A DNA stretch of 64,000 nucleotides, taken from a virus. Shown here piece by piece: positions 16,415 to 59,600 of this stretch. The position numbers and the translations under genes were made by a program. Under the pieces are notes generated by a model. The model was given only the letters and a program-made list of their open reading frames with translations, was not told the origin of the DNA and searched no databases. Numbering within the stretch: the first letter of the stretch is position 1; every line of letters starts with the position of its first letter. The stretch lies in IMG/VR virus record IMGVR_UViG_3300005253_000655, positions 3,683 through 67,682 of that record. One strand, 5' to 3'.

Positions 16415-16443
16415 TAGGACAGTTGAAACAGGAAAGGGGGCAC

Positions 16444-17108
16444 GCACAGCACGACATACAAATAGGTGGATGACTGGTTCCAGGTACTTCCCGCCTTATA
16501 ACGACTCCGGTCAGATAGTAGGGAAGGACGGGCATGAGGCATGTTGGGCCTCAGAGACGGACCTGCAGATCTTAGGGAGAAACAGGGTGCGGTCCTGGTG
16601 AAATGAACCGCAGATTACAATCATCTGTTATCATAACAGAGAGGGAAGTCGTCGAAAAAAGGGTTGTGTATTGGCTAGTAAGTGCTTTGACAGACTGTCC
16701 ATTACCCTTACACTTAAGAGTTCGTTGCTCGCCTTGCATCAATTATACAATGATGCAAACTTCCCTTTCTGGTATGCTAATAGGTGATTGTAGCTTCGCT
16801 TGGAAGTTACAAGCAGATTATTACACGTGATGGGGATAGACAGACTATAAATTAAGTCTATTGCCAATGGAGCTAGCATTTACACTTCCGACTGAGACCG
16901 GGAGAGGCTATGGGGTTCAACTCCCCTGTGTATATCTCAGATCTGTTTGTACTTCCAAGTGAGGCTTGTGTTAAATACTTACCGGGGAGAGGTTACAATG
17001 GGAAGTGGCCAGCGTTAGGATAGCTTCCAAAACGTAAAGACTGCATGACATGCACCCGGAGACGTTCGGCTGTATTGGCAGCTACCGTCAACCTCCCCAC
17101 GGTAAGTA
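16444..17108 (+). ncRNA. Cluster of three candidate structured ncRNAs
   Basis: No credible ORF; closing stems at 16444-16669, 16792-16966 and 16976-17108. Confidence 0.5.
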
Positions 17109-18121: not shown

Positions 18122-18289
18122 ATGCCTATAATAGATAAGATCTTGAATTTCGAGGCTGGCGAAATGGAAGAAGAGGAGATGGTGGAATTCTTCCAAGAGT
18201 TGATTGACAATGGCATGGCTTGGACCTTGCAGGGTAGCTATGGGAGGATGGCAAGTAGCTTGATTGACGCAGGACATTGCTCTGCATAA
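18122..18289 (+). CDS. Small conserved phage protein
   Basis: E.GE..EEE.VEFFQELIDNGMAWTLQGSYGR.A motif seen in phage early genes. Confidence 0.6.
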   Translation: MPIIDKILNFEAGEMEEEEMVEFFQELIDNGMAWTLQGSYGRMASSLIDAGHCSA

Positions 18290-18356
18290 GCCGAAACTGG
18301 GGAGGGGCATTCCCCAGTCTGTCAAGGATTGATACCTTGGCACTGATGAGGCAATC
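18290..18356 (+). ncRNA. Type II hammerhead ribozyme 1
   Basis: GCC-GAAA-[CTGGGGA/TCCCCAG]-TC^-[TGTCAAGG/CCTTGGCA]-CTGATGA-GGC; GATTG pairs with 3' CAATC. Confidence 0.9.
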
Positions 18357-18378
18357 AAAATAACAGGGAGGAAAAACC

Positions 18379-19234: not shown

Positions 19235-19456
19235 ATGGAATTTAGAAATATTAAACCTGGAAGGATATTCTACATAGGTAACCGTGCCTTTGCAAAACTT
19301 CGCAAGCCTCATGGGGAAAGGCCTACAGAGGCATGCTGCAAGGGAAGAAGTTGTACTGTGTCTTGGAATGCTACAAATTTTGCCAATGACGTACATATTT
19401 GTCCTTCCACCTGGGTGGAACACACCCAGTATTATTATGAAGAGAAGGAGGACTAA
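19235..19456 (+). CDS. Hypothetical early protein
   Basis: 73 aa; stop abuts hammerhead 2. Confidence 0.5.
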   Translation: MEFRNIKPGRIFYIGNRAFAKLRKPHGERPTEACCKGRSCTVSWNATNFANDVHICPSTWVEHTQYYYEEKED

Positions 19457-19521
19457 GTCGAAACGGGGCGTGAGCCTCGTCTGACCGGGGATGGCTACCT
19501 GGCACTGATGAGACAGGCCAT
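19457..19521 (+). ncRNA. Type II hammerhead ribozyme 2
   Basis: GTC-GAAA-[CGGGGC GTGA GCCTCG]-TC^-[TGACCGGG/CCTGGCA]-CTGATGA-GAC; loop ATGGC pairs with 3' GCCAT. Confidence 0.9.
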
Positions 19522-19713
19522 AAGGAGGGGATATGATGGGAGAGGAGAAGACAGAAAAAGTCATATGTATGTTGTGCGTACACGAATGGCCAACTAACGA
19601 GATTGATGTTAGATCTATTAGTCGTGATGTTTGTACTGGACGTGAAATATTAACTTTTAAGTGCCCGAACTGTCATCGTATAAAACAATCTTTAACTTGG
19701 GAGGGATAAAATC

Positions 19714-20665
19714 ATGTCAAATATACCCATTGAGTCTTTGGAAAACATCAATAATTCTTGCAGGAACATGCTTGACAATCTGGGAGACGTTAGACCTTAT
19801 AGCGTAGATCATGAGGATGTGGAAAACTTCTGTTTGGATCTTGAGGATGACGTAAAATCAATAGAGCATCATATCTCTGTTATCCGGCAAATGAATGACA
19901 AGTATAATAAATAAGGGGGTGAGCACTATGGACATAGAAACCTGGAGGAGGAATTTTTCCGCAGCACCGGCCTACAAGAGATACACATTGTTCCGGGCGC
20001 TGCAAACTCTGAATGAATGGGGACCGTTCCGTAAAGAGTTCGAGCCGGAAGGGCTTGTAAGGTTACAAGAGATTTTTCGGGAGGAGCTGGACTGTAAGGC
20101 TCGGAGCTTCATTTTGAGCAAGGAGGATGATCATGGCTAAACATAGCAACCATTACAGGCTGTGGGACTGGTGCTCACACCATCCAGAGAAGAGAAAAGA
20201 GGACTGGCCGGGATGGGCTAGCGTAGACAAACTAATAAATTCTTGCTTCCTATGCAGGATGGCTAAAGGGGATTGTGACAACTGCCTGGGTACTTGGGGA
20301 CCGGATGACTATGCCTACAGCGATGCAGGAGGTCGTGACACCTGTGAATCTATTTATACTAAGGATGGGTGGAGGTCACACGGCCTTTATACCCTGTGGT
20401 TATTTGCATGGGATAATAAAAATTGGGGGGAGCGAATACGACTTGCACAATTAATACGTGATATCGTAAAGGAGGATTAATCATGAGCAATAAAAAGAGG
20501 GAAAAAGAGAAGGAAAAGCAGGGATGGGAGAAGGAAAAGCTGGAATGGGATTGGGTACAGGAAGAGCTTGAGCAGTTGTGGGAACGTTATGGGAAAAAGT
20601 TCGAGCACCCAATTCAAGCTAAATCCAATTTACATTACATGCTTTCCAACTGCTTGGAAGTTTAG
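19714..20665 (+). CDS. Run of four small early ORFs (19714-19914, ~19928-20140, ~20133-20480, 20483-20665)
   Basis: Tightly packed ORFs each with a purine-rich RBS; no recognisable family. Confidence 0.5.
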
Positions 20666-20766
20666 GCGCAGGGTGAAGAGTAAGACGGGGGAAGGGTGCC
20701 ATTGTCTTGTGGGCAACCAGGGGCAGTGGTTAGCCGCCCTCGCCACTCTGCACAACTGTTGGTAAC

Positions 20767-20910
20767 CATACACGAGGAGGAGGTTGGAGGCATAGCTGCC
20801 TCTCTGAGACGGACGGAGTGCCACAGAACACAGGCTGACGAGTCACAGTGGACGGGCATTACTCTAGGCGGTCGAATTGCACTAGTCTGGTGTGAACCTC
20901 CTCGTGTATG
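20767..20910 (+). ncRNA. Candidate structured RNA with RNase P S-domain-like double T-loop
   Basis: 14-bp perfect closing stem CATACACGAGGAGG/CCTCCTCGTGTATG; AGTGCCACAGAA...AGTGGACGG inside. Confidence 0.5.
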
Positions 20911-20928
20911 TTTATCAGCATAATTAAT

Positions 20929-21009
20929 GGGGTGGAATTGGTTTCGACGGGTGCGAGTCCATCAATCGGGCGCATTCGGAGCGGGGTTCGATCCCCCGCC
21001 ACTCCACCA
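20929..21009 (+). ncRNA. Minimal tmRNA-like RNA (tRNA-like domain only)
   Basis: GGGGTGG...GGTTTCGACGGG 5' end, G3-U70 pair, T-arm CGGGG-TTCGATC-CCCCG, ACCA end; no tag ORF. Confidence 0.8.
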
Positions 21010-21032
21010 AAATTAACTCACAAGGAGGTAGC

Positions 21033-21368
21033 ATGAAGTATAAGTATACAAAGGTAAAACTGCCAAACGGCAAAACAGTGGATAGACATAGATTGATCAT
21101 GGAGGAATATTTGGGACGCCTGCTTGAACCTGAAGAGGAAGTGCATCATTGCAATGAAAATAAAAAAGATGACACGCTTGAGAATCTGGAACTGGTATTG
21201 AAAGTAGTACATAGACAGGAGCACTTCCGCACAGGAATATTCTTGCCTTGTGGCTTTTGTTCAACAGAGGTATATTGTAGTCCAGGAAGAATGCGGCAAT
21301 CAAAACTCAAGATATTCTTTTGCGATAGACACTGTAGGAATAATTATCAAGGGGCAAAAGGTTGGTAA
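21033..21368 (+). CDS. HNH homing endonuclease with C-terminal Zn finger
   Basis: HRLIME..LGR.L.PEEEVHHCNENKKDD..ENL. Confidence 0.85.
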   Translation: MKYKYTKVKLPNGKTVDRHRLIMEEYLGRLLEPEEEVHHCNENKKDDTLENLELVLKVVHRQEHFRTGIFLPCGFCSTEVYCSPGRMRQSKLKIFFCDRHCRNNYQGAKGW

Positions 21369-21386
21369 TCCCCACGCTCCACCATT

Positions 21387-21476
21387 GGAGAGTTGGCCGA
21401 GCCAGGTAAGGCACCAGGTTGCTACCCTGGAATCAAGGTTACACTTGCACAGGTTCAAATCCTGTACTCTCCGCCA
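21387..21476 (+). tRNA. tRNA-Ser(GCT)
   Basis: Cloverleaf with long variable arm, anticodon loop TTGCTAC, G73 + CCA. Confidence 0.9.
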
Positions 21477-21566
21477 TTCAAAGGGATGTAGCTACGAAGG
21501 GCATGCTTTAAGTAGGGTTCGACTCCCTACCATCCAACTCATTTAACCTAAAAAGGAGGAGACAAC

Positions 21567-23067
21567 ATGAACGATTCAACACAGGAGTTGGGGATAAATT
21601 TGACAGGTGTCATCAAGAGTATTGTCCTGGATGTGATACATGAGCAATCCAAAATAAAGGCGGACGTGGAGGAGCTAAGCCGGGCAGGTTCCAAGTGGTC
21701 AACCACAGAGATAAACAAGCTACGGTCAGAGTACGCCACTGCAATCGCAATCATCGCACAGTTGCATTCCCGGTCACCAGGAGGGATTCACTCACAATTG
21801 GCGCACATGGACGACCTACGTTACTAAAAAAGGAGGGAATTGACAATGTACACTGACGGGGAACGTATCCAAAATCTCAAGAAAAAGATCCGAGAAATTG
21901 AATTCGATGTAGAAGTATGTTGGGGAGGATGAGGGACAGTGGCACCGGGTCTCTATGTTTTGGGAATGCACAGAGTCCCCTGTGGACTATTGTGTTTATA
22001 CCAAGTGGGAAGACCCCCTTTCTGACAACTGTATCTACTGTCATCAACCCCATGAAAGGGGATAACAAGGGAGGAATTGACCATGACAAAAATACAGACT
22101 GCAATGCTTACAGGCGCAGGTTTCGGTTTTAGCCTGGGAGTTGCCTGGGCAATTTTTTGTAGATTTATCGTTGATAAAATCATGAACAGAAAGGAGGAAC
22201 AGCATGGAAAAGAAAATGAAATGGATGAGACACCTACCATCCCACATGATCCGCACGGCCCTACATTTTGACCCAGAAATGGTCGTGAGAGTCGTACACT
22301 TCGCACCAAAATACACAGAAGTTCGATTATACTGTACGGATGGCAAGTACGCTCAAGGGATTTCAATCTGTAGCACGCTGGACGAGTGGGACTATAAAAC
22401 AGGTAAATGCCTTGCATTCTCAAGAGCTATTACGGCATTGTTAACAGAAGAGAGGACTGGGCGTATACGCAAGACCGTTACACGGAAGTGGAAGCCTGCA
22501 CAAGACAGGCGCGTCCGGAATGTAGTATACAGGTTCAAGAGTTTCTTTAGGGAATGCAATCTAAGGGGGTACACAACATGAGACACAACGATTACATGGT
22601 CATCAAAAATTGTAAGTTATGCGGCAAGCCTGTCCTGCGCCCTATATTTTGGGCGGGACTGAAGTCGCCTATGACAGGCAAGGCGAGCGTCACACCGACA
22701 TACCCTATGTGCAAACATATCAAAGGCAACAGGAGGTAGGTTATGCGAAAATTAATAATGGGAGACTGGGAATACTCCTGCACTGTCCTGCGGCGCTGTT
22801 TCGTAATCGGAATAGTGCTGATCATCCTGGCAGTGGTAAACAATTGGAGGTGACATGAAATTCAAAATTGAGTTCACTGTGAACGATGCGGATCTTAAGA
22901 GATTGGATAAAAATGTGCTCACACAATCCAGGGGAGGTGAAACATCCTACCAATACATAGTGCGCGGCATTAATTTTTTCCTCGGAAAGATCGGCTTACG
23001 CCACAGCACAATCAGCCTATACACACAAGAGAGTGTGATAAAATCCGCCGAGGAGGTTAAGAGATGA
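21567..23067 (+). CDS. Run of small hypothetical ORFs (21567-21827, 22204-22581, 22855-23067 and shorter ones)
   Basis: Each preceded by GGAGG-type RBS. Confidence 0.5.
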
Positions 23068-27590: not shown

Positions 27591-27918
27591 AAGTTAAACC
27601 CTCCTGTGGGTACTTCCAATTTTTCGGTGAATGTAAATTCTGTCTGCAGTTCATGCATGTTATACGGTCAGCATCTGCCTCTTGGTGTAACCTGTGTCCA
27701 CACGTTGTACACTGCCCGTTCTCCTTTCTTTCCCTTTTCTGTTTGACACTCCTTTCCTGTTCTGCTATCCAGTTCTTTTTATGGTACTCCTTTCTTTTGG
27801 TGGAGGCTTTAAACAGGCATGCCGTGCACTTTACAAATGGGGGTTGCAAAGGCTTTGGGCATTCCCTGCATAACCCCGCAGCCTTTCTATTTCTCCTATT
27901 TTGCTCCACGCTATACAT
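27559..27918 (-). CDS. Cys-rich Zn-finger protein
   Basis: Four CxxC pairs. Confidence 0.55.
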   Translation of the reverse strand: MYSVEQNRRNRKAAGLCRECPKPLQPPFVKCTACLFKASTKRKEYHKKNWIAEQERSVKQKRERKENGQCTTCGHRLHQEADADRITCMNCRQNLHSPKNWKYPQEGLTYEIIKSSDAG

Positions 27919-30900
27919 TCCACTTATCCATCGTACCCCAGTCCTTCCCGGTCTTAGGGTCCACGGGTGTCGGCACTTTCAATGTCACAGCGTTCTCCAT
28001 CACATCCACTATTCTCGGGACCGCAATAGGCAACAAGTGATCATCTATCTCGAACAGGATATCATCATGAATCTGTATCAGCGGTCTACAAATTCCCATC
28101 TCACTCAGATCCTTCAGCACAGGTACCAGGTCACCCATCGCCTGCTTGATCACACCTTGCGCCCCCATCTGTATCGGAGCGTTTCCAGCTTTACGCAGCG
28201 CTTCCAGCTTCACCCACATGTTGTGAGCTTTAACACCTGGGACATACATTATCCTTCCCCACATGTCACGTACAAACCCGTGCCGCTTGGCATGAGTCTT
28301 CGTGTCCTGCATGAACTGAGCAATGCCGCTGTACACCCTGAACCAGGCTTCAATCATTTCCTCACATTCCTGCAGTGTGGATGTAGCGCCTTGGGAAAGC
28401 ATCTGTTCCAACAACCCTTTCCCTGTGATATCGTACAGAATTCCGAACCCGATTCTCTTGGCCGGATACCTGTGTTGCAGCTCGTCCACATCCTCTACTG
28501 CCAGCCCCCACATCTTGGCTGCAGTCATCGTGTGGATGTCCTGACTCTTGTTAAAGATCTCTATCATATTTGTGTCGTCGCCTTCATGTGCCGCTACCCT
28601 CATTTCGATCTGGCTGTTAGAATGAATAAGACCGTTCTGCGACACATAGGTATGTGTATTGTCTACTGTTATCTGATAAATATCACGTAAACCTACAAGA
28701 TCAATACTTTTTATTTTATGGTTCTGCGTCTTAAACATAATATAACACTTATGGGAACAATAGATTGCCTTTCTACATTTTGGCTGTACAAACTCTTTAC
28801 CACAACAAGGGCAAGTTAAATAATCCCTCTTGAATTTTGCGTAATTAGGATTTTCCTTTCCTTTATATGTGCGGCGACTCTTTAATCCTTCACGTAAAGC
28901 CTCCAACCTTTTTTCATCCGAGCGTTCACCATTTTTCACTGCCCTCCAGTAACGCCTTCCACCTTGTGCCCTGTTTTCTGTTATAGGTAGATATTGAATA
29001 TTGTCTGAGTGCCAATTCACAGCATTACCATTCTTATGATCCACTTCAAAGCCTTCGGGACAATCACCATATTTGTATTTTGCAATTAAGCGGTGTTTAT
29101 AAAAAGAGTTATGATAATTTCTTAGGTACCATGTTGAATACTTCTGTGGCCCTGCATAACTTTCCTTCACATGTGCTAACCTGTCTCCCACACGCAAGTT
29201 TTTTAGTTCTACACACTCCCCCTCATACGTCATTAACTTATGGTCTGCAGTACACTTGATGCTTGTACCGTCCTCCAGCCTTAACTTATAAACAGGCGCT
29301 CTACCTACTTTAGCCGCAGCTATCACTTTTTCAAACTGTAAGGATATACCCTCCTTGGAGGACAGCACGCCTGTGCCTACCTTAATGTCCTTAATTGGTT
29401 GTTCACCATACTCCGTGATTATCTTCTCATCCCCCGTAAGACAATAGTCACAAGAGAGGAAACTGCAGCCTTCAGCCGCAACGAAACCCTTCCGAACCAT
29501 TTTGCCTTCTTTCGAACGAGTCGGCTGTGCCATGAGATTGGGATTACTCGCACTAAGCCTCCCCGTGATAACCCTTGTGATTCTGAAAGTGGTATGTATA
29601 CGCCCGTCTTGTTGTACCTTTTTTGGTAATTGTCTGGTGTACGTGTTGAGTAGCTTATCATAACCCCTCCATTCTCTTATCAGCGGTATGATTGGATGCT
29701 TGTCTACCAGCCTTGATAGCACCTTGTCATCCGTACTGTTGCCCCGGATTTGAGGCAGTCCCAAATCAACAAAAAGCTTCTTAGACACTTGCAACGGGGA
29801 GGCCAGATTGAAACTCGATTTCGCCTTCCTCATGATCATGTTCTCCAGTACATCCGCCTTACCCTGCAGGTACCCGGACAACTCTTCAAAATGCGCCAAG
29901 TCCACTTCAATCCCTGCCGCCATCATGTCAACTACCATCAACATGGCATGCATATCCCGCCAGAACACTTCCTGTAAGCCCCGTGTCTCGATCATTCCCC
30001 ACAGGATAGGCCAGAGTCGCAATGTGGCATCCGCATCTCTTGCAGCGTAGTCCACGGCGTCGTCATGGTCTATGTCACTCAGGTCGCCTTCCGGCATTTC
30101 GCCATACACAGCTTCCACTTGACCCCGGCCCTCATTCAGTTTAATCTTCTTCCAGCGGTCAGCAGGGTCAGCGCCTTTGTTGGCTGTGTCATTCAGGATA
30201 CGCAGGGATTTCTTTGCTATATTTTGTGGTTGCTTGACCCTGGCAGCGTCCTTCTCCCATACCAGAAACGGTTCCGGCGCAAGCCAGTCTTGCATAAGAA
30301 CCTGATTCAGGTAGTCAATGGCCTTGTTCTTAGTGGCCTCACCTACCATGTCTTTATAAGCGTTCATCACCATGCCAAGGTGTCTGAATGCCAGAGGTTT
30401 CAGTCCTTGGGGCTCGCTCTGCAAAAGATACGCAATCACCATTGTGTCTGCAAACCGGGCCGGAACAATCCCCACACTTGACAAGACTGGAAGATCATAC
30501 AGGGCATTGTGATTGAGGGTCAGGACGTGCGGCTTAGCCACATGCTTAGCAACCTCTTCCAAGGCCTCATGCCGGTCCTCCATGACAACGATGGACTCCC
30601 CTGGCACCACACTGAACGACAAGCACCAAAACTTATTCTTCGCCCACTCTGTATCAATTGCTACCACATCGTGGCCTTCCAATATATTACGTATGGACAA
30701 GCCTGTGCGCATCTCTGAATAGAATTCCCTATCCTTGAATACATCCTCTAAATGAACCGGCTCCCGCTGCATACTCAACACCTCATACAGCGTCCTGAAG
30801 TCTTGCTGACACCACAACAAGGCCTGCGAGTCAACTACGCCTGCACTCGGGTCGTATAGCGGGACCACTGTGCGCATAGAATTACCAACCATCACCCGGA

Positions 30901-31309
30901 AAGGTATACCGTGGACCCTGTCCATGCTGACATTGCCCAGGATCTGCTTTGTTGCCACAGCCCCTACAGTCCCGATGACGGAAGGATTTACAATGTCCAG
31001 TTCTCTATGTAGAAACTTCCGGCGACACGTGTCCAGGTGAACGGCCTTTGACTTCTTCACAATGCATTTCACACATTTAGTGACATAGATGTCTTCGCGG
31101 TCAATGTAATTGGCACGCAAGAGGTTGGTGAATTCCTCGCCACCTTTAGACCCCCCGTGGAAAGGAATACCGAATCTGTCTTCCCAGAATCCGGGGGAGT
31201 CTCCGAGAATGAGGAGCCTGGACGACAAATTACCCGTACCCCAAACGATCTGGGTACGAGTTTCGTGTAGTTCACAGGCTGTGCATGTGTGTGCTAGTTC
31301 ATTTTTCAT
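27911..31309 (-). CDS. polA: Family A DNA polymerase with N-terminal family-4 UDG-like domain and 3'-5' exonuclease, intein-containing
   Basis: CTACEL..GDSPG..VKC; Exo DTE/HNALYD/YAARD; TGRLS..NPNL; motif A DY|SQIEMR; HDD motif C. Confidence 0.92.
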   Translation of the reverse strand: MKNELAHTCTACELHETRTQIVWGTGNLSSRLLILGDSPGFWEDRFGIPFHGGSKGGEEFTNLLRANYIDREDIYVTKCVKCIVKKSKAVHLDTCRRKFLHRELDIVNPSVIGTVGAVATKQILGNVSMDRVHGIPFRVMVGNSMRTVVPLYDPSAGVVDSQALLWCQQDFRTLYEVLSMQREPVHLEDVFKDREFYSEMRTGLSIRNILEGHDVVAIDTEWAKNKFWCLSFSVVPGESIVVMEDRHEALEEVAKHVAKPHVLTLNHNALYDLPVLSSVGIVPARFADTMVIAYLLQSEPQGLKPLAFRHLGMVMNAYKDMVGEATKNKAIDYLNQVLMQDWLAPEPFLVWEKDAARVKQPQNIAKKSLRILNDTANKGADPADRWKKIKLNEGRGQVEAVYGEMPEGDLSDIDHDDAVDYAARDADATLRLWPILWGMIETRGLQEVFWRDMHAMLMVVDMMAAGIEVDLAHFEELSGYLQGKADVLENMIMRKAKSSFNLASPLQVSKKLFVDLGLPQIRGNSTDDKVLSRLVDKHPIIPLIREWRGYDKLLNTYTRQLPKKVQQDGRIHTTFRITRVITGRLSASNPNLMAQPTRSKEGKMVRKGFVAAEGCSFLSCDYCLTGDEKIITEYGEQPIKDIKVGTGVLSSKEGISLQFEKVIAAAKVGRAPVYKLRLEDGTSIKCTADHKLMTYEGECVELKNLRVGDRLAHVKESYAGPQKYSTWYLRNYHNSFYKHRLIAKYKYGDCPEGFEVDHKNGNAVNWHSDNIQYLPITENRAQGGRRYWRAVKNGERSDEKRLEALREGLKSRRTYKGKENPNYAKFKRDYLTCPCCGKEFVQPKCRKAIYCSHKCYIMFKTQNHKIKSIDLVGLRDIYQITVDNTHTYVSQNGLIHSNSQIEMRVAAHEGDDTNMIEIFNKSQDIHTMTAAKMWGLAVEDVDELQHRYPAKRIGFGILYDITGKGLLEQMLSQGATSTLQECEEMIEAWFRVYSGIAQFMQDTKTHAKRHGFVRDMWGRIMYVPGVKAHNMWVKLEALRKAGNAPIQMGAQGVIKQAMGDLVPVLKDLSEMGICRPLIQIHDDILFEIDDHLLPIAVPRIVDVMENAVTLKVPTPVDPKTGKDWGTMDKWNV
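28616..29443 (-). mobile_element. Intein (276 aa) with HNH endonuclease in PolA motif A
   Basis: CLTGDEKI start, block B TADHK, HNH EVDHKNGN...N, end IHSN then Ser. Confidence 0.88.
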
Positions 31310-50616: not shown

Positions 50617-53600
50617 CTATCTTATTTCAAGTACCTTTTCGGTTATTTTGTCGATTTTTTCATTCATTCTTTTGTAGATCTTTTGGTAGCGTATCCTTAT
50701 CTTGTCCTGCGAGGAGCCGGAGCGCATTAACTTCTTGTAATCGCTACGGAACTCTCTCTTGATATCCAAGATCAGGTATTTAAAGCTCCGGAGCCTGTTC
50801 GCCCTTTCCACGCTGTAATCAATGGAGCGGATCTTGAGACCCAGGAACACGTCGAATATAGCCTCAGTGAGGCTCCTTTCACGCCCTGCGAAGTCCTTAT
50901 CCCCTGTGGCGGCGGATATGAGCTTATTGAACCCGAAGGAACCTGGGGCCAAGCCTGGAGCTGCCTGACGCCATAATTCCATAGCCAGCTTCTTCATGTA
51001 TTCCCCTCCCTCATCCACGTCCTTGATCGTGAGATCTTGGCCGGTGAAAAGGACTTCGTTGAAAGCCACCTCTGCAGCGTACACATAGACAGGGTGGTTG
51101 GGCAAGAAGGGACGGAAGGCTATGCGGGATTGTCCCCACTGTTCCGCCACGTCACCCCAAGGCAGGATGTAGGAGAGATCCAGCCACTTTGTTGACCTGC
51201 CATCGTCGCTTTTGTAAGGAAGCTTCATGTGGGAAAACTGTCCAGGGAACACGCTCTTGCGCATATAAGCAGGTAAGACCTTCTTTTCCCTCTCCGCTTC
51301 CTCCTCACTCTCACCGTTGACGCGCCGGGAAATTCCCTCGGCAGCGAGCATCAACATCCAGATTGCCGCAACCCTCCAAGGTGTGCGTATTGCCATGCGT
51401 GCCATACGAGGCATAGCCTTGTAACTAAACGTGATAAAGGGCGCATACCAACGCTTGGCCCAACGGATAGCAGGGGGTAGCTTGCTGTAATTGAACAGGC
51501 CTTCCTCAGCTTTCTTGGCTGCAGCCTTGATGGATGCACCGCTCTTTCGGGCATTAATGAACACGGCAAGCTTGAAGAACTGCTCTATTGCCTGGTACGA
51601 TTGCCCTGGCTTGTCCGCGAGTTTACGCACGAGGCTACTGGACTTGGCCAGGAAGTTTCCGCCTTTGATCGCGGCAGCATCGGTCAGGAACTTAGTTACC
51701 TCTACCCCAGACCATTCATTTCCAAGCAGCGGTGTCGTCATGGCCTCTTTCCAATAACCGTCCTTGTTATACATATCTATAGCAGCTCTTGCATAGATAT
51801 CCCCACGCCAGGGCGCTAAGTCCTCAGCCCAGGCCAGGATAGTATTTGACATTATATTACGTGCCTGAGCCGCAGGGTTGTAAACAACCTTCCCCGTTTT
51901 CCACAGTCGCAACGTGGCATCCCAACTCTTAGTCAAGACATTCACTTGCTTAACTGCTTCATTCAAGTCATCATGGATGAATTTGTCCACCATCATGCCG
52001 GACAATGCGCCAAGCTTGTCTGTGACGGGCAGCGGTAGCCATCCTTTCACGTTTTCAAACACAGGCTCTCCGCGCAATTTCATTTCATTCCATGCCTTGG
52101 CGTCCATTGACCAGGACTGGTTTTCAGCTATGGTGTTGAACATGCGGATCAGTTCCATGTCATGGGTCTCTTGGCTTATGCCTTTCATGACGAGGAACGG
52201 AGCCTTGGTGATTTCTCCCAGTGTCTTGCGGTACTCGGCGTTCAGGTTCTTTCTTTGCTTGGTGAAGTTCTGCGAAGCTCTGGGACGACCCCGTAGCCAG
52301 CCAGTAAGACGGTTCATAAAGGTCTTCTCCACCTCAATGGTCTCATAGGCCCTGAGCAGGTAGTGCTTGCCGGACATTGTGTAGTGAGTTTGAATGCGAC
52401 TTAGGATCTCCCTGCGCTTCTTCAGCTCTTCCTTCATCTTTTTCTTTATAGCAGCTCTACCTTTGCGGAGCACGGCAGGGTGGAAAGACTTAATTGTGTT
52501 CATCTTTTCCAACATGGTCGTAATCATATGCTTTTGAAACTTCTTAGTGATGAATACTGTATCCCCGGTCTCACCTTCGAGAGCTGAAACGGAATCCTTT
52601 ATGGCGGAAATCATAAGGTCTGCCTCGCCAGTTGTAAAGCCACGAGACATGAGAGCCTCATGCACTCGACCTTCATTGGCTTGGGTTAGCTTGTTCACTT
52701 TTGTGCGATACTTGCCCTTTTCAACTTCTTCCGTGGCGGATAAAAGTTCATTTTCCAATACTTTAGTTACGGATTTCACAACCTTCTCGGTCTTGACAGT
52801 GGGCAGCAGGCGTTTCTCCATCTTCTTGACTTCCGCATCAATCGCATCAATCTCACGGAATTTGTCCGCAATGGCTTTACGTGTGAGCTGCTTGAACCTA
52901 TTGTCCGCGCCCAAGATACCCAGACCCGTCAGCTCTGATTCCAGGCGCTGAAATACCCTTGCAGCTTCGAGAGCGTGCTTGTACTTGTCATGCTGTGTGG
53001 TGATGGAGCCCTGGATAATCTGTGAGGCTCGCACCTGTTCTGCCGGGGTCAGGGCGTTGATTGCAATCGCAAGCTCTTCAGCCTTGGCCCGGTATTGGGT
53101 TATTTTGAAGTTGGTATCATCGCGCAGTGCAATGAATTGGGAAGACTTCCCGTAATCGGTGATGATACCCTTGTTGACAGCTTCCACAAACCTAGACTTT
53201 TTTCCTAGGTTGAGGGGCAGGTCATGGCTTGCCCACTTCCAGACGGGGTCACCAACGTGCTTTACCCAGAGGTCTTTGAGAGGTCCCGTGATGCCTTGCT
53301 GCTTGATGTAGGTGTCTATTTCATGGCCTTGATGTTGAGCCAGCACCGTGGAGCCTGGACGCACAGAGTACAGTGTGTCGCCTTGTTCTGACGTGGAGCC
53401 CGGAGCGCTTTGCTCTGCGTAAGCGACATCCTGTACAGAAGGCCGGAAACGAATTATCAAGTCATCTGTGGAAATTCCCCCTTGGAAACTATTGAGTGCT
53501 TTTCTCTGGTAGACGTCGAAAGCTTCTCGGGCAGAAACAGACCGAGCTTCTCCCTCGCCCAATAATTTCTGGTACTCCTGAAAGGGCTCGAAAACCTGCT

Positions 53601-56600
53601 TCATCATGTAGCGCAGCCTTGCAGGATCACCTTGGTGCTGTTTGGCGAGCCGTTGCACATTGGGAGTTGCAAATTTCTTATTTGCGATAAAAATCTCCTC
53701 TAAAGAGAATCCTGTCCGGGTAGCGGCGTCTATGAAATTTAAGGCTGTAAAAGCGTTTTCAGGGTTATCTCCATGCTCCAGCATGCCTTCAACACTACCG
53801 CCGCGAGCAAAGCCTTCAATTGCTTGTATTGCATGCTGAATCTCGTGGAGCAAGGTTCCGTAATTCCCGTCGAACTGTATGACGCTCCCACCAAAGGCTC
53901 CTCCGCGTTTCAGGTTTTTAAATACAGGGATATTAGCCAGTTCCGGGTAGGCCTTGAATAAAGTAGGATGATTCAAAACCTTGCGCAATATATTATGGGT
54001 GAATGTTTTCTTACTTCCCAATTTTTTCCTTTTCCATGTTAATCCCTTCGTCATAGAGCCAGAACTATCGTCGATTTCATACTTCCACTTGCCATCAGGA
54101 GATAACCACCATCCTGTCCGTTGCCGAATGCCCTCAGCGTCCGCACCTTCAATGGCGTTAAATCTTCTGGCTTGTTCCAACTTGCTGCCTGCCAGGAATT
54201 CCTTCTGTGCAAGCTCCGACTGCTCACCCATGATGGTGTAGTATGTGCCATCCCATTCTTTCTGACGTATGGGGAACGCGCCGACTTTGATTTGTCCAAA
54301 GTAATCCGCAGCCCGAGAAAAACCTTTCCCTTCCAGACCGTTTTTCGTGATGTTCAGGAGGCGCAACATCTTTTTCCAGAGGGTCTTGAGCCAGTTGGGT
54401 TTGTACTGGGCGTTTTTACTATCCACAATATAGTCAGCAAAAGCGTTTGCCTCGGCCTCTTCTGAGCCGAACAGTGCAGTCATCTTTGTGTGCCATTCGG
54501 CAGGTATCATCAGCATGCGCTTGTAGGCATGGTAGAGCTCATGGTATAGAGCACGCTCCATGTGTGCGATGTCGTCCACGTTATTGGACAGTTCTATCTG
54601 GGCGTAGATACCGTTGAAGGTGGTCTTGCCTAGGATGTCCTCGGCGGTTAGGGGTCTGCCCAAGGTCTTCTCATGGTCCACTATGCTCTTGGCCGCTTGC
54701 TTAGGGTCCAGGGTCAGTACGTCCAGACCTTCCACTGTGACCCGGTCCTGCAACTCTGCGCCGAAGCCAGCGTTCTTGAACCATTGGGGCAGGTTCTTCA
54801 TCAGTTCGGAGATTTCTACAACTTGCTTCGGCGTGACCTTGCCTTTGAACACGCGGCGTAATGCGAATTTGGCAGACCCCAGGAACCCTTTATCTCTGAA
54901 AACGGATTTGATTTGTTCAGGTTTAAAAGCAATAAAGGATTGCCTGATTTCATCTGTAGTTCCTATAGCCTCAAATTCTGTAATGTATAGAATTCCATCA
55001 TACCCCTTTTTCAGCATTGCTTTACGCACATCGTTGGAGTCTTTAAACTTTGAGAATTCGGAAGCAGTGAAAGGGCCTTCGTTAGTCGGTCCAAGATGCT
55101 CCTCTAGCATACCCATGTCATTCCAATCTCCAATATCAGTAACAAGATTGTAGGGGTTTTGTAAACTGAGATATGCAGGTATTACACTCTCACCTGTCGG
55201 TTTTTTCCCAATGTCTACTCTGTCTGAGGCCACTGCGGAAGAACCAAAGTGCATTCCCAGTTCGCTTATCTCAGGGTCAAAGGTATCAAATACAACATCT
55301 GTTCCATGATACACTACGAGAGGTTTACCTTTGGAATCTACTACTTTAGACTTCTTAAACCATTTCTTAAACTCCGTGCTATCTATAACTCTTTTCGGCC
55401 CTGTTCCTTTGCGTGACGGGGCGAGGGGAACACTAACACCTTTACTTGGCCCGGCTTTGCTTTCTCTTCCTTGAAGCCCAGTTCTTCCATAAGCTGCATC
55501 AACGGCTTGTTGGTAGGTTGCTTCGTGGACTTCTCCTTCTCTGACTGCTTCGGCATAAGTTGCTTCTCCTTTTGTTTTGCCTTCATAGGCTGTAATGTGT
55601 TTTTTGTAATTCTTACGGGACTCTTCTGTGCCCTCCCAACTACCAAGCACTTCTGCATGCATAGGGGTAAAAGTTTCAGAACCCTGGACACTAACTGACT
55701 GCAGACCCTTAAGGACAGCTTTTGCCTTCTCCAGCGTTTCCTTGGTCATCCCTTTCAAAGGAATGAAATGCTCCAGAGTGATGCCAGTCGAAGTGACGAC
55801 TCTGTTATACTCCTTCACGCCTAATTCTGTCAACTTATCATGGAGCTGCTCAGATGTAAATTTGGGATCTACTTTCATCTTCACGTAAATACCATTAGGG
55901 TTAGCATCCGTGTGCAGGATGATCACACCATTTTGTTTCTTGCTCAGGCCTACCAGTTCTGCCATCGCAGCACGCACAGCAGGTAGTGGACCTTTCAACG
56001 TAACGGACAGACCGTGCTCCAATTGCCCGCTTGTGTAGTTATCGAATTTTGCCAAAGTAGGTCTGGTCTCGACAATGTCCACAGGGTACACACTTAACCG
56101 CTTGCGCAGGTCGGTCACGAGGTCCGGCAACAATTGTGAGGCAACAGCCTCCAATGCTTCCACATCCTCGGGCAAGGCCTTTGTGACATCCACAACGTCA
56201 CTAAGCGCGACCATAGCTTCAGTGGTAAACGTCTCCACCTTGACCTCATCAAACATGAAGAAGATGGGTCCGTTGGGAGTGGGCAGTGTGAAGCCTTTGT
56301 ATGCTTGTGAGTTCTGTATCAGTCCGGCGATTGCGTTCATTTTCACCTGGTTGAGAGTGAGCTGCCCGGACAGGACACGAGGGTCCAGTAGTGCTTTTTG
56401 TATGCCTGCACCAATGTAACCCAGGACATCGTTGTCGCCGTCATAGACCTCGTTCTCGTACACAGTGGTCATGTTGGGGACTTTGCCGCGAAAGAAGGTC
56501 TCACGTCTAGTCTTGCCGCTGTACCAGTAGCTCATTTGGACGTAAGGGTTGTCTGCAGTGCTGGATTCCATGCGCTTTAGCACGTCATTCCTTGACCAAG

Positions 56601-59600
56601 GATGTGGCTTGTCGCCTTCCGCAGCGGTTGAGAGGTCTGTGAGTTCCTTAATTTCCAGCCCGGTTAAGGGTGTAATGAAACTGGAAGACTTGTCGCGCAA
56701 TGCCAACATGCGTCTTTTGTCCTTGCTCGTCAGCTTTCGCGGTGCCCGTGCTCCCCTGATCACGAAACGATTTTCGCGTGCGAAGTGGACAATTTTCTGT
56801 CCCTTTTCTTCCGCTGTCAGGCCTAGCATCTTGCGCCCCAGACGTTTCACGGGGTCCACAAGTATGGCATGGTTGAATTCGGTTATTTGAGATGTACCTG
56901 CGCGGGGGATCTCAACCCCTGCCGCATACCATAGAGCTGCCTGGACATCGGAGTTAGTGATGCCTGGGTGTTTGCCAATTAAATCTTCGCGTGCCTGTAT
57001 GATGTCGCTTATGATTTCATTGCTCGCAGCCGTGGTGACTTTAAACCCGCCTGCAACATCCTGGGGGGTCCAGGTGAAATTGTATCCCCAGAGTCGTCCC
57101 ATGTGTCGGTCAATCACGATGGACTCACCGGACTCATCTAGGACAGAGTGAACCATTGCCCCGATCTTGCGTCCGTAATAACTGATACGGTCCTCCATCG
57201 TGACACGTGTTTCTTTACCTTCCCAAATCTCCCGAGCCTTTTTAGTTGCGGCTTCGCTCATACCTCCTAGATTGCCTTCTTTTCCTGCTTCCAGATCTCT
57301 AACAGCACCGGCAGCTATAGTTGCGGCAGAAGGTACGTTCCTGTTTGCGGTACTGATTGCTTGGATCTTAATGTTCTTAACAATGTCTTCCCGCGACATA
57401 CCAGCTTTCTCGAACTTGATCATGTCATCGTGCCACTTCTTATACCAACTCAACGCTGAAAGGTTCTTCTCCACCAGAGCGTTAATCATCTTACGCCGCA
57501 GCGCAGGGTCTCGGGGAAGTATAGGGGCGTTAATGATGAGAAAGTTCACGCCATCAATTGTTACACGCTTTTCCTTAATCACGGACTCACCGCGAATAGG
57601 GTGTTTCAAGACTCTGTCTGTTTCCACTACCTTGTGGCCAGCGGCTTTGAGTAGGGAGACAGGGCCTTGTATAATTCCGGCTTTCTTCTCCGCGTCGTAT
57701 GTGATGACGAAGGGGTTCTCGTGCGCCGTTGCGTGTAGGGATAATTTGCTCCCATGCTTGGCTATATGCTTGTCGTACAGTTTACCGAAGGCGAGATTTC
57801 CCGTTTTGACGTAGCCAGTCATGACGCGCTTTAAATCTGCGGGAATCTTGCGAGCTGCAAACACCATTTCACTTTCAAAGTTGCCTTGACTGACCTCGTC
57901 GAATGCAGTCTGATAACGGCCAGAGACTTTCTGTACCTTTGTTCTGGCTTGCGCCTTGGTCATGCCAGCATCCCGATACTTCTTGTATAAGCGAGGGAGC
58001 ATTTTGGAAGGGGACAAGGAGTCCACAACCACTTCTGTACGTTTGCTCTTCGTGTCATAGTCTTCCAGTGCCTTTTGCATGACACGCTTCATCTCGGGTA
58101 TCTTGCGGGTCTCCATAGCGACCATGACGTCGGCGTGACTGGTACTGGGGGACAATTTATCCGCACCCGCAGCGGGTACGCCTTTTTCAATCTTAGTCTT
58201 TACATCTGAAACCTCCTTAAACACGGGAGTCTTATCCAGCATCTCACTACCGAACGCCAGCACCTTTGTGTAGAATCCCTCGTGTAATTTCTTATCCTTG
58301 AGGTAGGACCGGGATATAATGTTTTCATCTACGTCAGTCTCAGTGGCTTCTGATATCTGCTCTCCTATGGAGGTACCAGCGTACACGGCCATGTTGTATA
58401 TGTTAACGTGAGAGATTATGTCCTTGTTCTTTTTAAGGAAGTCCAGAGTGTTCTGATAGGTCTCTGTGGTCTCCGTCCATATCTTTCCATCCTTGGTCTT
58501 CCCCGCCAAACCGCTCATTATGTTGGGGATGAAGGCGATTCCGTCTTCACGTAGTTTGGCCACGGCCTTGTCAATGAGTTTCCTGTTTGCGGGCTTCTTA
58601 AGTCGTCTCAGGATATCGTCATTGTAGGACTCCACGCCTAATTCCACGTACTTGACCCCGGCTTTCTTTAAGAATTCGGGGTCTAACTTAAGGTATTGCG
58701 GGGCAGTTGTCTGTATAATGAAACCTTGAAATTTGGGATTTTGTTTCTTAAGCTTCTTGTATAGCTCCTCCAGGTAAGTGTAATTGGGAGCCTGCCCAAA
58801 GGTCTTATCATCCATGTAGACAAGGGTGAAGTCTAAATCTTTAAACGTCTCTACCTGTTTGTCGATATTGGTCTGGGTGAGTGGCTCCACATTTGATCCT
58901 ACAGTACAGAACGCACAGCTATGCGCACACCCTTTGGCAGAACACAGTCTGGGTACAGTTTTAGTGCCTTTGAAGTGTCGGTTGTCAACACCTCGTTTAT
59001 ATGGTATACCTTCAGCTTTAGCGGCATTTTGGAGGGATAATCGAAACTCCACGTTGGGCAGATCTTTAAAATAACCCTTGTCAACATAGCCACCTACAAT
59101 AATTTTGCCTTTATAAATTTTGGCTATCTCACGTATAGACTCCTTATTAGCATCCATTGCGCTGAACATGACAAGCTTGTATCCGGCTTCGTTAAGTTGT
59201 TCAGCTAGTTTTTTGGGATCTCGGGCAATGATTACATCGGAGTTAGGGAATGTGGCAGCTCCTTCAGATATCCATGTAGGAATCTCCCAGAAATCTTCGG
59301 ACTTGTTGTATCCTTCCCTTTTAGAGTAGAGTTTGTCAAAGTAAGGATCGGCTTGATCCGTCTCTGCTCTGGTGGCTTTGAAGTCGATCTGCACCATTGC
59401 AATACGCTCAGATCTAGGAACTACATCTTTCGCCCTGGGGTCCGGTATGGTCAGGTTTTGTTTTCCTTTGGCAAGGGCGACGGTTATAGCTTTCTGATAG
59501 GTGGGCGCTATCACCTGATCCCTAGATATAACTGCCCCTTCCCGTTTGATTTTTTTCTTGGTGGCATAGTCCTGCAGGTTAGTGACTATATCTTTTGTTG

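What the first reader, a model, noticed from the sequence alone, without database searches (positions are those of the whole stretch)
20929..21009. 81-nt tmRNA with only the tRNA-like domain
Seen: tmRNA-type 5' end (GGGGTGGAATTGGTTTCGACGGG, stemless D-loop), helix GGGTGCG/CGCATTC capped by about 15 nt, T-arm, acceptor stem with the G3-U70 alanine determinant, A73 and encoded CCA. Known: bacterial tmRNA carries a tag reading frame and pseudoknots here, SmpB binds this domain, and tag-less forms are described from jakobid mitochondria. Inference: a phage RNA that can be alanylated and bind SmpB but cannot tag. It could sequester SmpB and block trans-translation, or release stalled peptides without a degradation tag, which might matter for ribozyme-cut or nuclease-cut mRNAs.
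Basis: partly seen in the sequence, partly recalled or inferred. Interest (0 to 1): 0.85.

Follow-up and report, generated by a model that had tools for sequence, protein, structure and literature searches.

The report
Phage tag-less mini-tmRNA gene
This uncultured marine-sediment phage carries a real 81-base gene for only the alanine-accepting, tRNA-like end of the bacterial ribosome-rescue RNA (tmRNA); the kind is already known from mycobacteriophage DS6A, is common in phage sequences, and probably interferes with the host's rescue-and-tagging system.

Summary
Observation confirmed. At 20929-21009 (+) Rfam's tmRNA model matches end to end (63.7 bits, cut-off 47, E 1.6e-22), with 13 nt where the model has 306 positions for tag frame and pseudoknots. 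All listed parts are there: a 7-bp acceptor stem with G3-U70, A73, encoded CCA, T arm, stemless D-loop and an 8-bp helix 2a capped by 15 nt.

It is not new in kind. Mycobacteriophage DS6A has a published "TLD only" tmRNA, reported to inhibit E. coli tmRNA (PMC4131195 and PMC11915505, passages read). My model finds the DS6A gene at 28478-28560 (49.5 bits).

Two pattern scans of IMG/VR gave at least 120 further loci by covariance model, with strong covariation. ARAGORN called none of the 99 first-scan loci.

This scan has reported the same family on other DNA at least eight times.

No SmpB, integrase, full tmRNA or tag-coding half was found in this phage. ARAGORN's 489-nt call here looks forced.

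Most likely function: a chargeable SmpB-binding competitor of host tmRNA. This is untested here. No close relatives were found, so a recent deletion cannot be checked.

The parts
20929..21009 (+). Whole mini-tmRNA gene (tRNA-like domain only), 81 nt
   Evidence: RF00023 at 63.7 bits, E 1.6e-22. Own model R1 gives 81.1 bits, but this sequence was in R1's training set.
20929..20935 (+). Acceptor stem, 5' strand GGGGUGG. G3 is the alanine identity base.
   Evidence: Pairs 7 of 7 with 20999-21005. G1-C, G2-C and G3-U are invariant in 23 of 23 and 67 of 67 distinct family members.
20936..20947 (+). D-loop analogue without a D stem (AAUUGGUUUCGA). The final G-A can form the tandem G-A pairs with G51-A52.
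   Evidence: Aligns to the tmRNA consensus GAucuGGaUUCGAC. That these are tandem G-A pairs is read from the Rfam structure line and from recalled knowledge.
20948..20955 (+). Helix 2a, 5' strand (CGGGUGCG)
   Evidence: 8 pairs with 20971-20978. In the family, 6 of the 7 modelled pairs of this helix show changes on both sides.
20956..20970 (+). 15-nt cap that stands where standard tmRNA has the pseudoknots and tag frame. It can form 4 pairs (GUCC/GGGC) around a 7-nt loop.
   Evidence: 13 nt replace 306 model positions. Fold. Too short for any tag frame.
20971..20981 (+). Helix 2a, 3' strand (CGCAUUCG), followed by GAG
   Evidence: The GGA here is invariant in the 23 sequences of set 1 and was not forced by the search pattern.
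20982..20998 (+). T arm: 5-bp stem CGGGG/CCCCG with loop UUCGAUC
   Evidence: The T stem is 100% paired in the family, and 3 of its 5 pairs show changes on both sides.
20999..21009 (+). Acceptor stem 3' strand CCACUCC (U at the G3 partner), discriminator A, and encoded CCA
   Evidence: The discriminator is A in all 22 unique genes of set 1, where the pattern did not force it.

Best explanation
Positions 20929-21009 encode a tag-less mini-tmRNA of the DS6A type: the tRNA-like domain of tmRNA, closed by a short hairpin.

Inferred steps, none tested here:
1. It is transcribed as part of the plus-strand operon of small genes.
2. It is cut out by the host's tRNA-processing enzymes (RNase P at G1). 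The CCA is already encoded.
3. It is recognised by host alanyl-tRNA synthetase through G3-U70 and A73.
4. It is bound by host SmpB.
5. Because it has no resume codon or tag frame, it cannot add the ssrA degradation tag.
6. The most likely net effect is competition with host tmRNA for SmpB, and probably for EF-Tu and stalled ribosomes. Tagging of proteins made in the infected cell would then be reduced or blocked.

Shown here: the gene, its anatomy, its family and the selection on its structure. Inferred: processing, charging, SmpB binding and the effect on the host.
For: Identity.
- RF00023 matches end to end at 63.7 bits against a cut-off of 47.

Family, first scan.
- 46 of the 97 IMG/VR loci searched, plus L102, carry a full-length short form at 52 bits or more under model R1.

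Family, second scan.
- 73 of the 99 loci searched carry a short form at 40 bits or more, and none of them was used to build R1.

Selection on structure.
- Set 1: 94.2% of cells paired against 72.0% in shuffles, and covariation 0.555 against 0.163. 0 of 500 shuffles reach either value.
- Set 2: 96.2% against 65.6%, and covariation 0.734 against 0.138. 0 of 500 shuffles reach either value. Slid controls give 41-54% paired.

Alanine identity.
- G1-C, G2-C and G3-U are invariant in 23 of 23 and 67 of 67 distinct rows.
- Pairs 4 to 7 of the same stem covary.
- The discriminator is A in 22 of 22 unique genes where the pattern did not force it.
- Keeping these elements suggests that charging matters.

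Precedent.
- R1 finds the published DS6A gene at JN698994.1 28478-28560 (49.5 bits, E 3.5e-12).
- That type of molecule is reported to inhibit E. coli tmRNA strongly, perhaps by titrating SmpB (PMC4131195 and PMC11915505, passages).
- A crystallised SmpB complex used an engineered fragment of similar design: 25 residues from the 5' end and 34 from the 3' end, joined by a UUCG loop (PMC3985003, figure legend read).

Dependence on the host.
- No SmpB in this record, which CheckV rates 100% complete.
- No SmpB in 4 other records that carry short forms.

No tag part.
- No second tmRNA-type match over the cut-off in the record.
- No match resembling the message half in the window at E up to 5.

Not an attachment-site relic.
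- The full 5' half is present.
- No tyrosine integrase was found.

Bacterial control.
- 69 of 76 bacterial loci with the same 5' motif hold a tmRNA of 343-396 nt with an ALAA-type tag.
- None holds a short form.
Against: - No experiment or RNA data exist for this RNA.
- The host is unknown.
- My family sets were drawn with patterns that force parts of the D-loop and T-loop motifs, and in the second set also U70, C71, C72 and A73. Those positions are not independent evidence.
- The alignments were fitted to the model.
- G3-U70 could be kept simply through descent from host tmRNA. However, the covariation at neighbouring pairs argues for long divergence.
- According to the cited report, the DS6A-type inhibitor worked whether or not it could be charged. 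Conserved alanine identity is therefore not explained by simple titration of SmpB and fits the tag-less-rescue rival at least as well.
- In other phages the gene sits in head-gene modules, so early expression is not general.
- No relatives of this phage were found, so a recent internal deletion of a full tmRNA cannot be excluded for this copy.
Confidence: 0.55

Rival explanations
1. Tag-less rescuer. The charged RNA enters stalled ribosomes with SmpB and EF-Tu and accepts the nascent chain on its alanine. The ribosome is then freed by drop-off, peptidyl-tRNA hydrolase, ArfB-type factors or further rounds. Ribosomes are recycled, but the protein gets no degradation tag.
For: - The alanine identity elements are kept across the family while the rest of the acceptor stem covaries. 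A pure SmpB sponge would not need this.
- Mitochondrial and some plastid tmRNAs without a tag frame are thought still to help with incomplete mRNAs (PMC11915505, passage).
- The review PMC3985003 (passages) describes Ala-TLD with SmpB as the part that accepts the peptide.
Against: - No mechanism is known for resolving a peptidyl-TLD ribosome that has no template.
- The only reported test of the type, on DS6A, showed inhibition rather than rescue (as cited in PMC4131195).
- No release factor, hydrolase or ArfB-type gene appears among the recurrent neighbours.
Confidence: 0.25
2. Processing signal or decaying relic. The tRNA-like fold serves only as an RNase P and 3'-end processing mark that punctuates the polycistronic early transcript, or it is a leftover of a captured host tmRNA. 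In either case it has no role in trans-translation.
For: - No sigma-70-like promoter on the plus strand between 19537 and 21083, and no terminator-like site until 21974.
- The same operon holds two hammerhead ribozymes, a long-stemmed structured RNA and tRNA-Ser.
- No relatives are available to show conservation of this particular copy.
Against: - A plain processing mark would not need the tmRNA-specific D-loop motif, helix 2a, G3-U70 or A73. All of these are kept in a family with strong covariation.
- Most members stand alone: only 6 of 47 have a tRNA within 1 kb.
- The helix is closed exactly and pairs 8 of 8, which is not what decay would leave.
Confidence: 0.08
3. Decoy for something other than SmpB. 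Possible targets are a host nuclease or defence system that senses or cuts tRNA or tmRNA, or RNase R, which is regulated through tmRNA-SmpB.
For: - Phage tRNA-like RNAs and t(m)RNA fragments can act on host nucleases. AcrIIIA1-bound t(m)RNA fragments bind RNase R (PMC11662646, passages).
- A second tRNA-like element without an anticodon arm lies at 21483-21539.
Against: - No defence or counter-defence gene is linked to the family.
- The conserved features are exactly those of the SmpB- and AlaRS-facing part of tmRNA.
Confidence: 0.07
4. Split tmRNA. The structured 260 nt upstream (20666-20928), where ARAGORN places a tag ALATLHNCW*, supplies a tag template that works with the stand-alone tRNA-like domain.
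For: - ARAGORN joins the two into one 489-nt call.
- The upstream stretch folds far better than shuffles: z -4.36, with 0 of 200 shuffles as good.
Against: - ARAGORN's 5' end lies inside ORF 20483-20665, which has its own ribosome-binding site, and pairs only 6 of 7.
- No Rfam tmRNA or permuted-tmRNA match to the upstream stretch at E up to 5.
- The tag does not end in the ALAA type seen in the bacterial tmRNAs that ARAGORN called with the same 5' motif, judged from the calls printed.
- Its stop codon lies inside a stem of about 24 bp.
- The only complementarity to the tRNA-like domain is a 7-nt word.
- No motif is shared with the upstream regions of 96 other family members.
Confidence: 0.03

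Closest known systems
'TLD only' (standard form, no CDS) tmRNA of Mycobacterium phage DS6A (JN698994.1, 28478-28560)
   Same: - Phage-encoded and about 80 nt (83 against 81).
- Same parts: acceptor stem with G3-U70, discriminator A, T arm, stemless D-loop, and helix 2a closed by a short hairpin.
- No tag frame.
- Found by my family model at 49.5 bits.
- Unannotated in its GenBank record, as here.
   Different: - DS6A does not encode CCA (its end reads CUA), and its D-loop and helix letters differ.
- Different host world: an actinobacterial temperate phage with an integrase, against an uncultured marine-sediment phage with no integrase found.
- DS6A-type RNA has a reported functional test. This RNA has none.
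Standard one-piece bacterial tmRNA (SsrA, Rfam RF00023)
   Same: - The two ends align to the model's tRNA-like domain over the gathering score.
- Bacterial tmRNAs with the 5' motif GGGGNNNAATTGGTTTCGACGGG occur in Ignavibacteria, Clostridia, Desulfobacteraceae and others.
   Different: - It lacks the 306 model positions that hold pseudoknot 1, the resume codon, the tag frame and pseudoknots 2 to 4.
- The bacterial genes are 343-396 nt with ALAA-type tags.
CDS-less organellar tmRNAs (jakobid and oomycete mitochondria; about 65-bp forms in Mallomonadaceae plastids)
   Same: A tRNA-like domain without a tag frame, thought to act with SmpB encoded elsewhere (PMC11915505, passage).
   Different: - Those are the organelle's only tmRNA. 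Here the RNA is an extra copy brought into a cell that presumably has a full tmRNA, so competition is the expected outcome.
- The mitochondrial genes are usually permuted. This one is not.
Engineered tRNA-like-domain fragments used to crystallise SmpB complexes (for example PDB 2CZJ)
   Same: Same design: the 5' and 3' ends of tmRNA joined through helix 2a by a small loop. The fragment binds the SmpB globular domain (PMC3985003, figure legend).
   Different: That fragment is a laboratory construct without the CCA end. Here the design is natural, has an encoded CCA and carries a 15-nt cap.

Membership tests
tmRNA, tRNA-like domain (Rfam RF00023) | Match to the covariance model at or above the curated gathering score | tested here: met
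   63.7 bits against 47, E 1.6e-22, model positions 1-374
tmRNA, tRNA-like domain (Rfam RF00023) | 7-bp acceptor stem with G3-U70, discriminator A73, and a CCA end | tested here: met
   GGGGUGG pairs with CCACUCC 7 of 7, with G3-U. Then A and CCA, all encoded.
tmRNA, tRNA-like domain (Rfam RF00023) | T arm with a TPsiC-type loop, a D-loop analogue without a D stem, and helix 2a leaving where a variable arm would | tested here: met
   CGGGG-UUCGAUC-CCCCG, AAUUGGUUUCGA, and 8-bp CGGGUGCG/CGCAUUCG. Helix 2a covaries in the family.
Full (tagging) tmRNA | Resume codon, tag reading frame with stop codon, and pseudoknots between the strands of helix 2 | tested here: not met
   Only 13-15 nt lie between the helix strands. 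No match resembling the message half elsewhere in the window or record.
Phage TLD-only tmRNA (DS6A type; 'standard, no CDS') | Complete tRNA-like domain of about 65-100 nt closed by a short hairpin, in a phage genome | tested here: met
   81 nt. The record has portal, large terminase, major head protein and DNA polymerase. Family lengths are 65-98 nt with a mode of 81-82. R1 finds DS6A.
Phage TLD-only tmRNA (DS6A type; 'standard, no CDS') | Inhibits host trans-translation when expressed | not testable with these tools
   Reported for the DS6A type only, through citations of Mao et al. 2009 in PMC4131195 and PMC11915505. The 2009 paper is not held.
tmRNA function | Charged by alanyl-tRNA synthetase and bound by SmpB | not testable with these tools
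   Only the sequence determinants are seen. No SmpB is encoded by the phage.
Two-piece (permuted) tmRNA (RF04321, RF01849-51) | Acceptor piece upstream of the coding piece, with the gene circularly permuted | tested here: not met
   The only match is a weak partial one over the T arm and 3' end (18.6 bits against 47, E 0.93). The domain here is contiguous and closed.
Mitochondrial tmRNA (RF02544) | Match to the specialised model | tested here: inconclusive
   Not listed. Lower-scoring overlapping matches of the same clan are hidden by the tool, so a weaker match cannot be excluded.

The most novel reading that the evidence does not exclude
The mini-tmRNA does not act alone. The unusually stable 260-nt RNA that ends 8 nt before it would be its partner, either as a tag template or as a tRNA-elbow-binding RNA. 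That RNA has a stem of about 24 bp around a three-way junction. The 57-nt tRNA-like element without an anticodon arm that follows tRNA-Ser could also take part. Together they would form a phage-built device that reprogrammes rescue of stalled ribosomes rather than just blocking it.
Probability: 0.04. Interest if true: 0.85.

Novelty: new member of a known kind. Interest (0 to 1): 0.35.

Why it matters
Trans-translation is the universal bacterial system that frees stalled ribosomes and marks their products for destruction.

A phage-encoded RNA that keeps only the chargeable, SmpB-facing end of tmRNA is a natural competitor of that system. This window adds a marine-sediment member.

The supporting survey is the more useful result:
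- At least 120 IMG/VR loci by model, and 96 distinct sequences by pattern and pairing rule.
- Strong covariation and kept alanine identity.
- No ARAGORN call in any of the 99 first-scan loci.
- By contrast, the 2025 tmRNA database lists only 9 "standard, no CDS" sequences among 97,179 and names one phage case (PMC11915505, passages).

The open question is whether these RNAs block rescue, give tag-less rescue or do something else. Ordinary assays can answer it, and the kept G3-U70 gives a clean mutant to test.

For this scan the result is a repeat: the same family has already been reported on other genomes.

Tried and rejected
1. ARAGORN's 489-nt tmRNA (20521-21009, tag ALATLHNCW*): rejected.
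- Its 5' end lies in ORF 20483-20665 and pairs 6 of 7.
- It lacks the D-loop motif.
- The start at 20929 pairs 7 of 7 and is the one Rfam aligns.

2. A tag-coding half upstream or elsewhere: no Rfam match. Only a 7-nt complementarity to the tRNA-like domain.

3. The stretch is strongly structured. What it is stays open.

4. Kinship of that RNA with 16440-16680 (note e1-6208967): the alignment is unconvincing and that stretch folds no better than shuffles (z -0.54).

5. HNH gene flanked by two copies of the tmRNA 3' end: the second copy (21351-21384) scores no better than other places in the window. Dropped.

6. Attachment-site relic: no tyrosine integrase. Serine recombinases were not searched.

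7. Relatives of this phage.
- No blastn match in GenBank phages. With the 81 nt alone, 31 records gave partial matches, none covering 80%.
- No relative found through the 117-aa neighbour.
- Two relatives at 53% large-terminase identity, both fragments (65% and 8% complete), have no tmRNA match.
- Exact 5' words gave 0 hits in genome contigs and in metagenome contigs.

8. Expression: no RNA holder listed. Only DNA contigs were laid.

9. A conserved protein partner: the recurrent neighbours are prohead protease, portal, terminase, capsid and WhiB.

10. A shared upstream RNA.
- Flanks of family members are structured more often than a control stretch: z of -2.5 or below in 26 of 92 upstream and 16 of 94 downstream, against 5 of 80 controls.
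- They share no motif with this window.

11. Host assignment: the best bacterial matches reach only 50 of 68 compared positions. My script resolved the 3' end in only 7 of the 76 loci. No claim is made.

12. Complex prediction, structure prediction and the protein database searches were not used.

13. Supplementary files of papers were not opened. Supplementary tables of PMC11915505 may list further phage no-CDS entries that I could not see.

Full report
**What is there.**
The window is bases 3683-67682 of a 67,682-bp IMG/VR virus record that CheckV rates 100% complete. PHROGs names a portal, large terminase, major head protein, DNA polymerase and helicase, so it is a tailed phage. The DNA occurs in three runs of one marine-sediment study.

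At 20929-21009 (+) cmscan reports RF00023 tmRNA at 63.7 bits (gathering score 47, E 1.6e-22). The model's two ends are aligned, and 13 nt stand where the model has 306 positions.

- a 7-of-7 acceptor stem with G3-U70;
- discriminator A and an encoded CCA;
- a 5-bp T stem with loop UUCGAUC;
- a D-loop analogue with no stem;
- an 8-bp helix 2a capped by 15 nt.

Contigs assembled run by run cover 20400-21600 without a difference. They may come from the sample that gave the window.

**The ARAGORN call.**
ARAGORN reports a 489-nt tmRNA from 20521 with tag ALATLHNCW*. I reject it for three reasons:
- its 5' end lies inside ORF 20483-20665, which has its own ribosome-binding site;
- it pairs 6 of 7 with the 3' strand;
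- it has no D-loop motif.

ARAGORN needs a tag to call a tmRNA. It made no tmRNA call in any of the 99 viral loci of my first scan, although 47 hold a short form.

**Is it one of a kind?**
No. A pattern scan of IMG/VR for a tmRNA D-loop motif within 15-45 nt of a T-loop motif gave 99 loci.
- I built a covariance model, R1, from 23 distinct short forms including the window's.
- R1 scores 46 of the 97 loci searched at 52 bits or more, and L102 as well.

- 73 of the 99 new loci searched score 40 bits or more, and none was used to build R1.
- By pattern and pairing rule, 133 loci hold 96 distinct sequences.
- Lengths run from 65 to 98 nt, with a mode of 81-82.

**Selection on the structure.**
- First set: 94.2% of pair cells are standard pairs against 72.0% in shuffles. 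The covariation score is 0.555 against 0.163. 0 of 500 shuffles reach either value.
- Independent set: 96.2% against 65.6%, and 0.734 against 0.138. Again 0 of 500. Slid controls give 41-54% paired. 6 of the 7 pairs of helix 2a change on both sides.
- G1-C, G2-C and G3-U never vary (23 of 23 and 67 of 67 distinct rows), while pairs 4 to 7 covary.

Caveats:
- the patterns force part of the D-loop and T-loop letters;
- in the second set they also force U70, C71, C72 and A73;
- my first list was filtered for G3-U70;
- both alignments are fitted to the model.

Each identity element is unforced in one set. A73 is unforced in set 1, where it is A in 22 of 22 unique genes. G3 is unforced in set 2, where it is G in all 74 unique genes. 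The other registers listed are one-base slips of the same genes.

**Controls in bacteria.**
The window's exact 23-nt 5' end occurs in no genome contig. A looser form occurs in 76 loci of Ignavibacteria, Clostridia, Desulfobacteraceae and others.
- ARAGORN calls a tmRNA of 343-396 nt with an ALAA-type tag in 69 of them.
- Of the other 7, five are cut by the end of the DNA held, one is interrupted in the T loop and one is a chance match.
- R1 finds no short form in those 7.

**What is known.**
- Hudson, Lau and Williams 2014 (PMC4131195, passages read) list mycobacteriophage DS6A as "TLD only". They say a similar molecule, chargeable or not, strongly inhibits tmRNA, perhaps by titrating SmpB, citing Mao et al. 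2009.
- The 2025 database paper (PMC11915505, passages read) repeats this. It counts 79 phage sequences and 9 "standard, no CDS" sequences among 97,179, and describes CDS-less mitochondrial and plastid forms.
- Mao et al. 2009 is not held.
- I fetched DS6A. R1 finds the gene at 28478-28560 at 49.5 bits, between gp33 and gp34, where the record annotates nothing.
- My paper searches turned up no paper describing a large phage family of such RNAs. I judged most of them from listings only.
- This scan has already reported the family on other genomes at least eight times.

**Context in this phage.**
- The gene lies in a plus-strand run of small ORFs. There is no sigma-70-like promoter on that strand between 19537 and 21083, and no terminator-like site before 21974.
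- Upstream are two type II hammerheads and a very stable RNA. The stretch 20660-20930 folds at z -4.36. A stem of about 24 bp joins 20757-20780 to 20897-20920 and ends 8 nt before G1.
- Downstream are an HNH endonuclease gene, tRNA-Ser and a 57-nt tRNA-like element.
- The record has no SmpB, no tyrosine integrase, no second tmRNA-type match over the cut-off and no match resembling the message half.
- Four other records with short forms also lack SmpB (a fifth was not held).
- In the three records with short forms that I searched with RF00023, no full-length tmRNA appeared.

**How it most likely works.**
Shown: a conserved, structurally selected gene for the tmRNA tRNA-like domain, with alanine identity elements and no tag template.

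Inferred: excision by tRNA-processing enzymes, charging by host AlaRS, and binding by host SmpB. The net result would be competition with host tmRNA, which lowers or blocks ssrA tagging (0.55).

The kept alanine identity fits entry into stalled ribosomes and tag-less transfer at least as well, and I rate that rival at 0.25. Lesser rivals are a mere processing mark or relic (0.08), a decoy for another host factor (0.07) and a split tmRNA with the upstream RNA (0.03).

**Limits.**
- No close relative of this phage was found. The nearest family member is 80% identical, mostly in the conserved core. Whether this copy is old, or a recent deletion of a full tmRNA, cannot be told.
- No RNA data exist.

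**Verdict.**
A true and tidy finding, but a further member of a published kind that this scan has met many times. Interest 0.35.

Noticed in passing
window 20666-20928 (+), core 20757-20920: A very stable non-coding RNA lies directly upstream of the mini-tmRNA. A stem of about 24 bp (88% complementary) encloses a three-way junction. The fold z-score is -4.36 for 20660-20930 and -2.95 for 20765-20915. No Rfam family matches at E up to 5, including RNase P. No motif is shared with the upstream regions of 96 other mini-tmRNA loci.
   Followed up: partly
window 21483-21539 (+): A 57-nt tRNA-like element lies 6 nt after tRNA-Ser. It has a 5-bp acceptor-like stem, a D-like stretch and a 6-bp T arm with loop UUCGACU, but no anticodon arm, no G3-U70 and no CCA. 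It scores 24.9 bits with my mini-tmRNA model (E 1e-5 on 11 kb). ARAGORN does not call it.
   Followed up: partly
IMG/VR loci L005-L103 and L192-L308: The 150 nt upstream of mini-tmRNA genes fold unusually well more often than a control stretch 1.2 kb away: z of -2.5 or below in 26 of 92 against 5 of 80, and in 16 of 94 downstream. Several are long perfect hairpins that end a few bases before G1. Some are plain terminators of the preceding gene.
   Followed up: partly
IMG/VR loci, e.g. L230 (protease 20-1657, RNA 1884-1966) and L268 (RNA 547-628, capsid 727-1920): In one subfamily the mini-tmRNA gene sits inside the head module, between the prohead protease and the major capsid gene. The top neighbour clusters are prohead protease (11 of 96 loci) and portal (10 of 96). 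WhiB genes nearby suggest actinobacterial hosts.
   Followed up: partly
window 18289-18360 and 19456-19522 (+): Two type II hammerhead ribozymes (42.3 and 40.2 bits, cut-off 37) lie in the same plus-strand operon as the mini-tmRNA.
   Followed up: no
window 21033-21368 (+): A free-standing HNH endonuclease gene starts 24 nt after the CCA of the mini-tmRNA and ends 18 nt before tRNA-Ser. Its last bases and the spacer resemble a tRNA-type 3' end (..CTCCACCA), but no more than other places in the window do.
   Followed up: yes
window 27911-31309 (-): The 1132-aa DNA polymerase ORF has HNH endonuclease matches in its middle (about residues 696-864), between the polymerase matches. This suggests an inserted homing endonuclease domain or an intein-like element.
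   Followed up: no
window 50617-61665 (-): A single ORF of 3682 aa, very large for a 68-kb phage. Not examined.
   Followed up: no
JN698994.1 (L182) 28478-28560: The published DS6A TLD-only tmRNA is not annotated in the GenBank record held here. The record also encodes an RtcB-like RNA ligase (gp76).
   Followed up: partly
L139 (Tissierellia MAG contig): A bacterial tmRNA gene that breaks off in the T loop, as expected where a genomic island has integrated.
   Followed up: no
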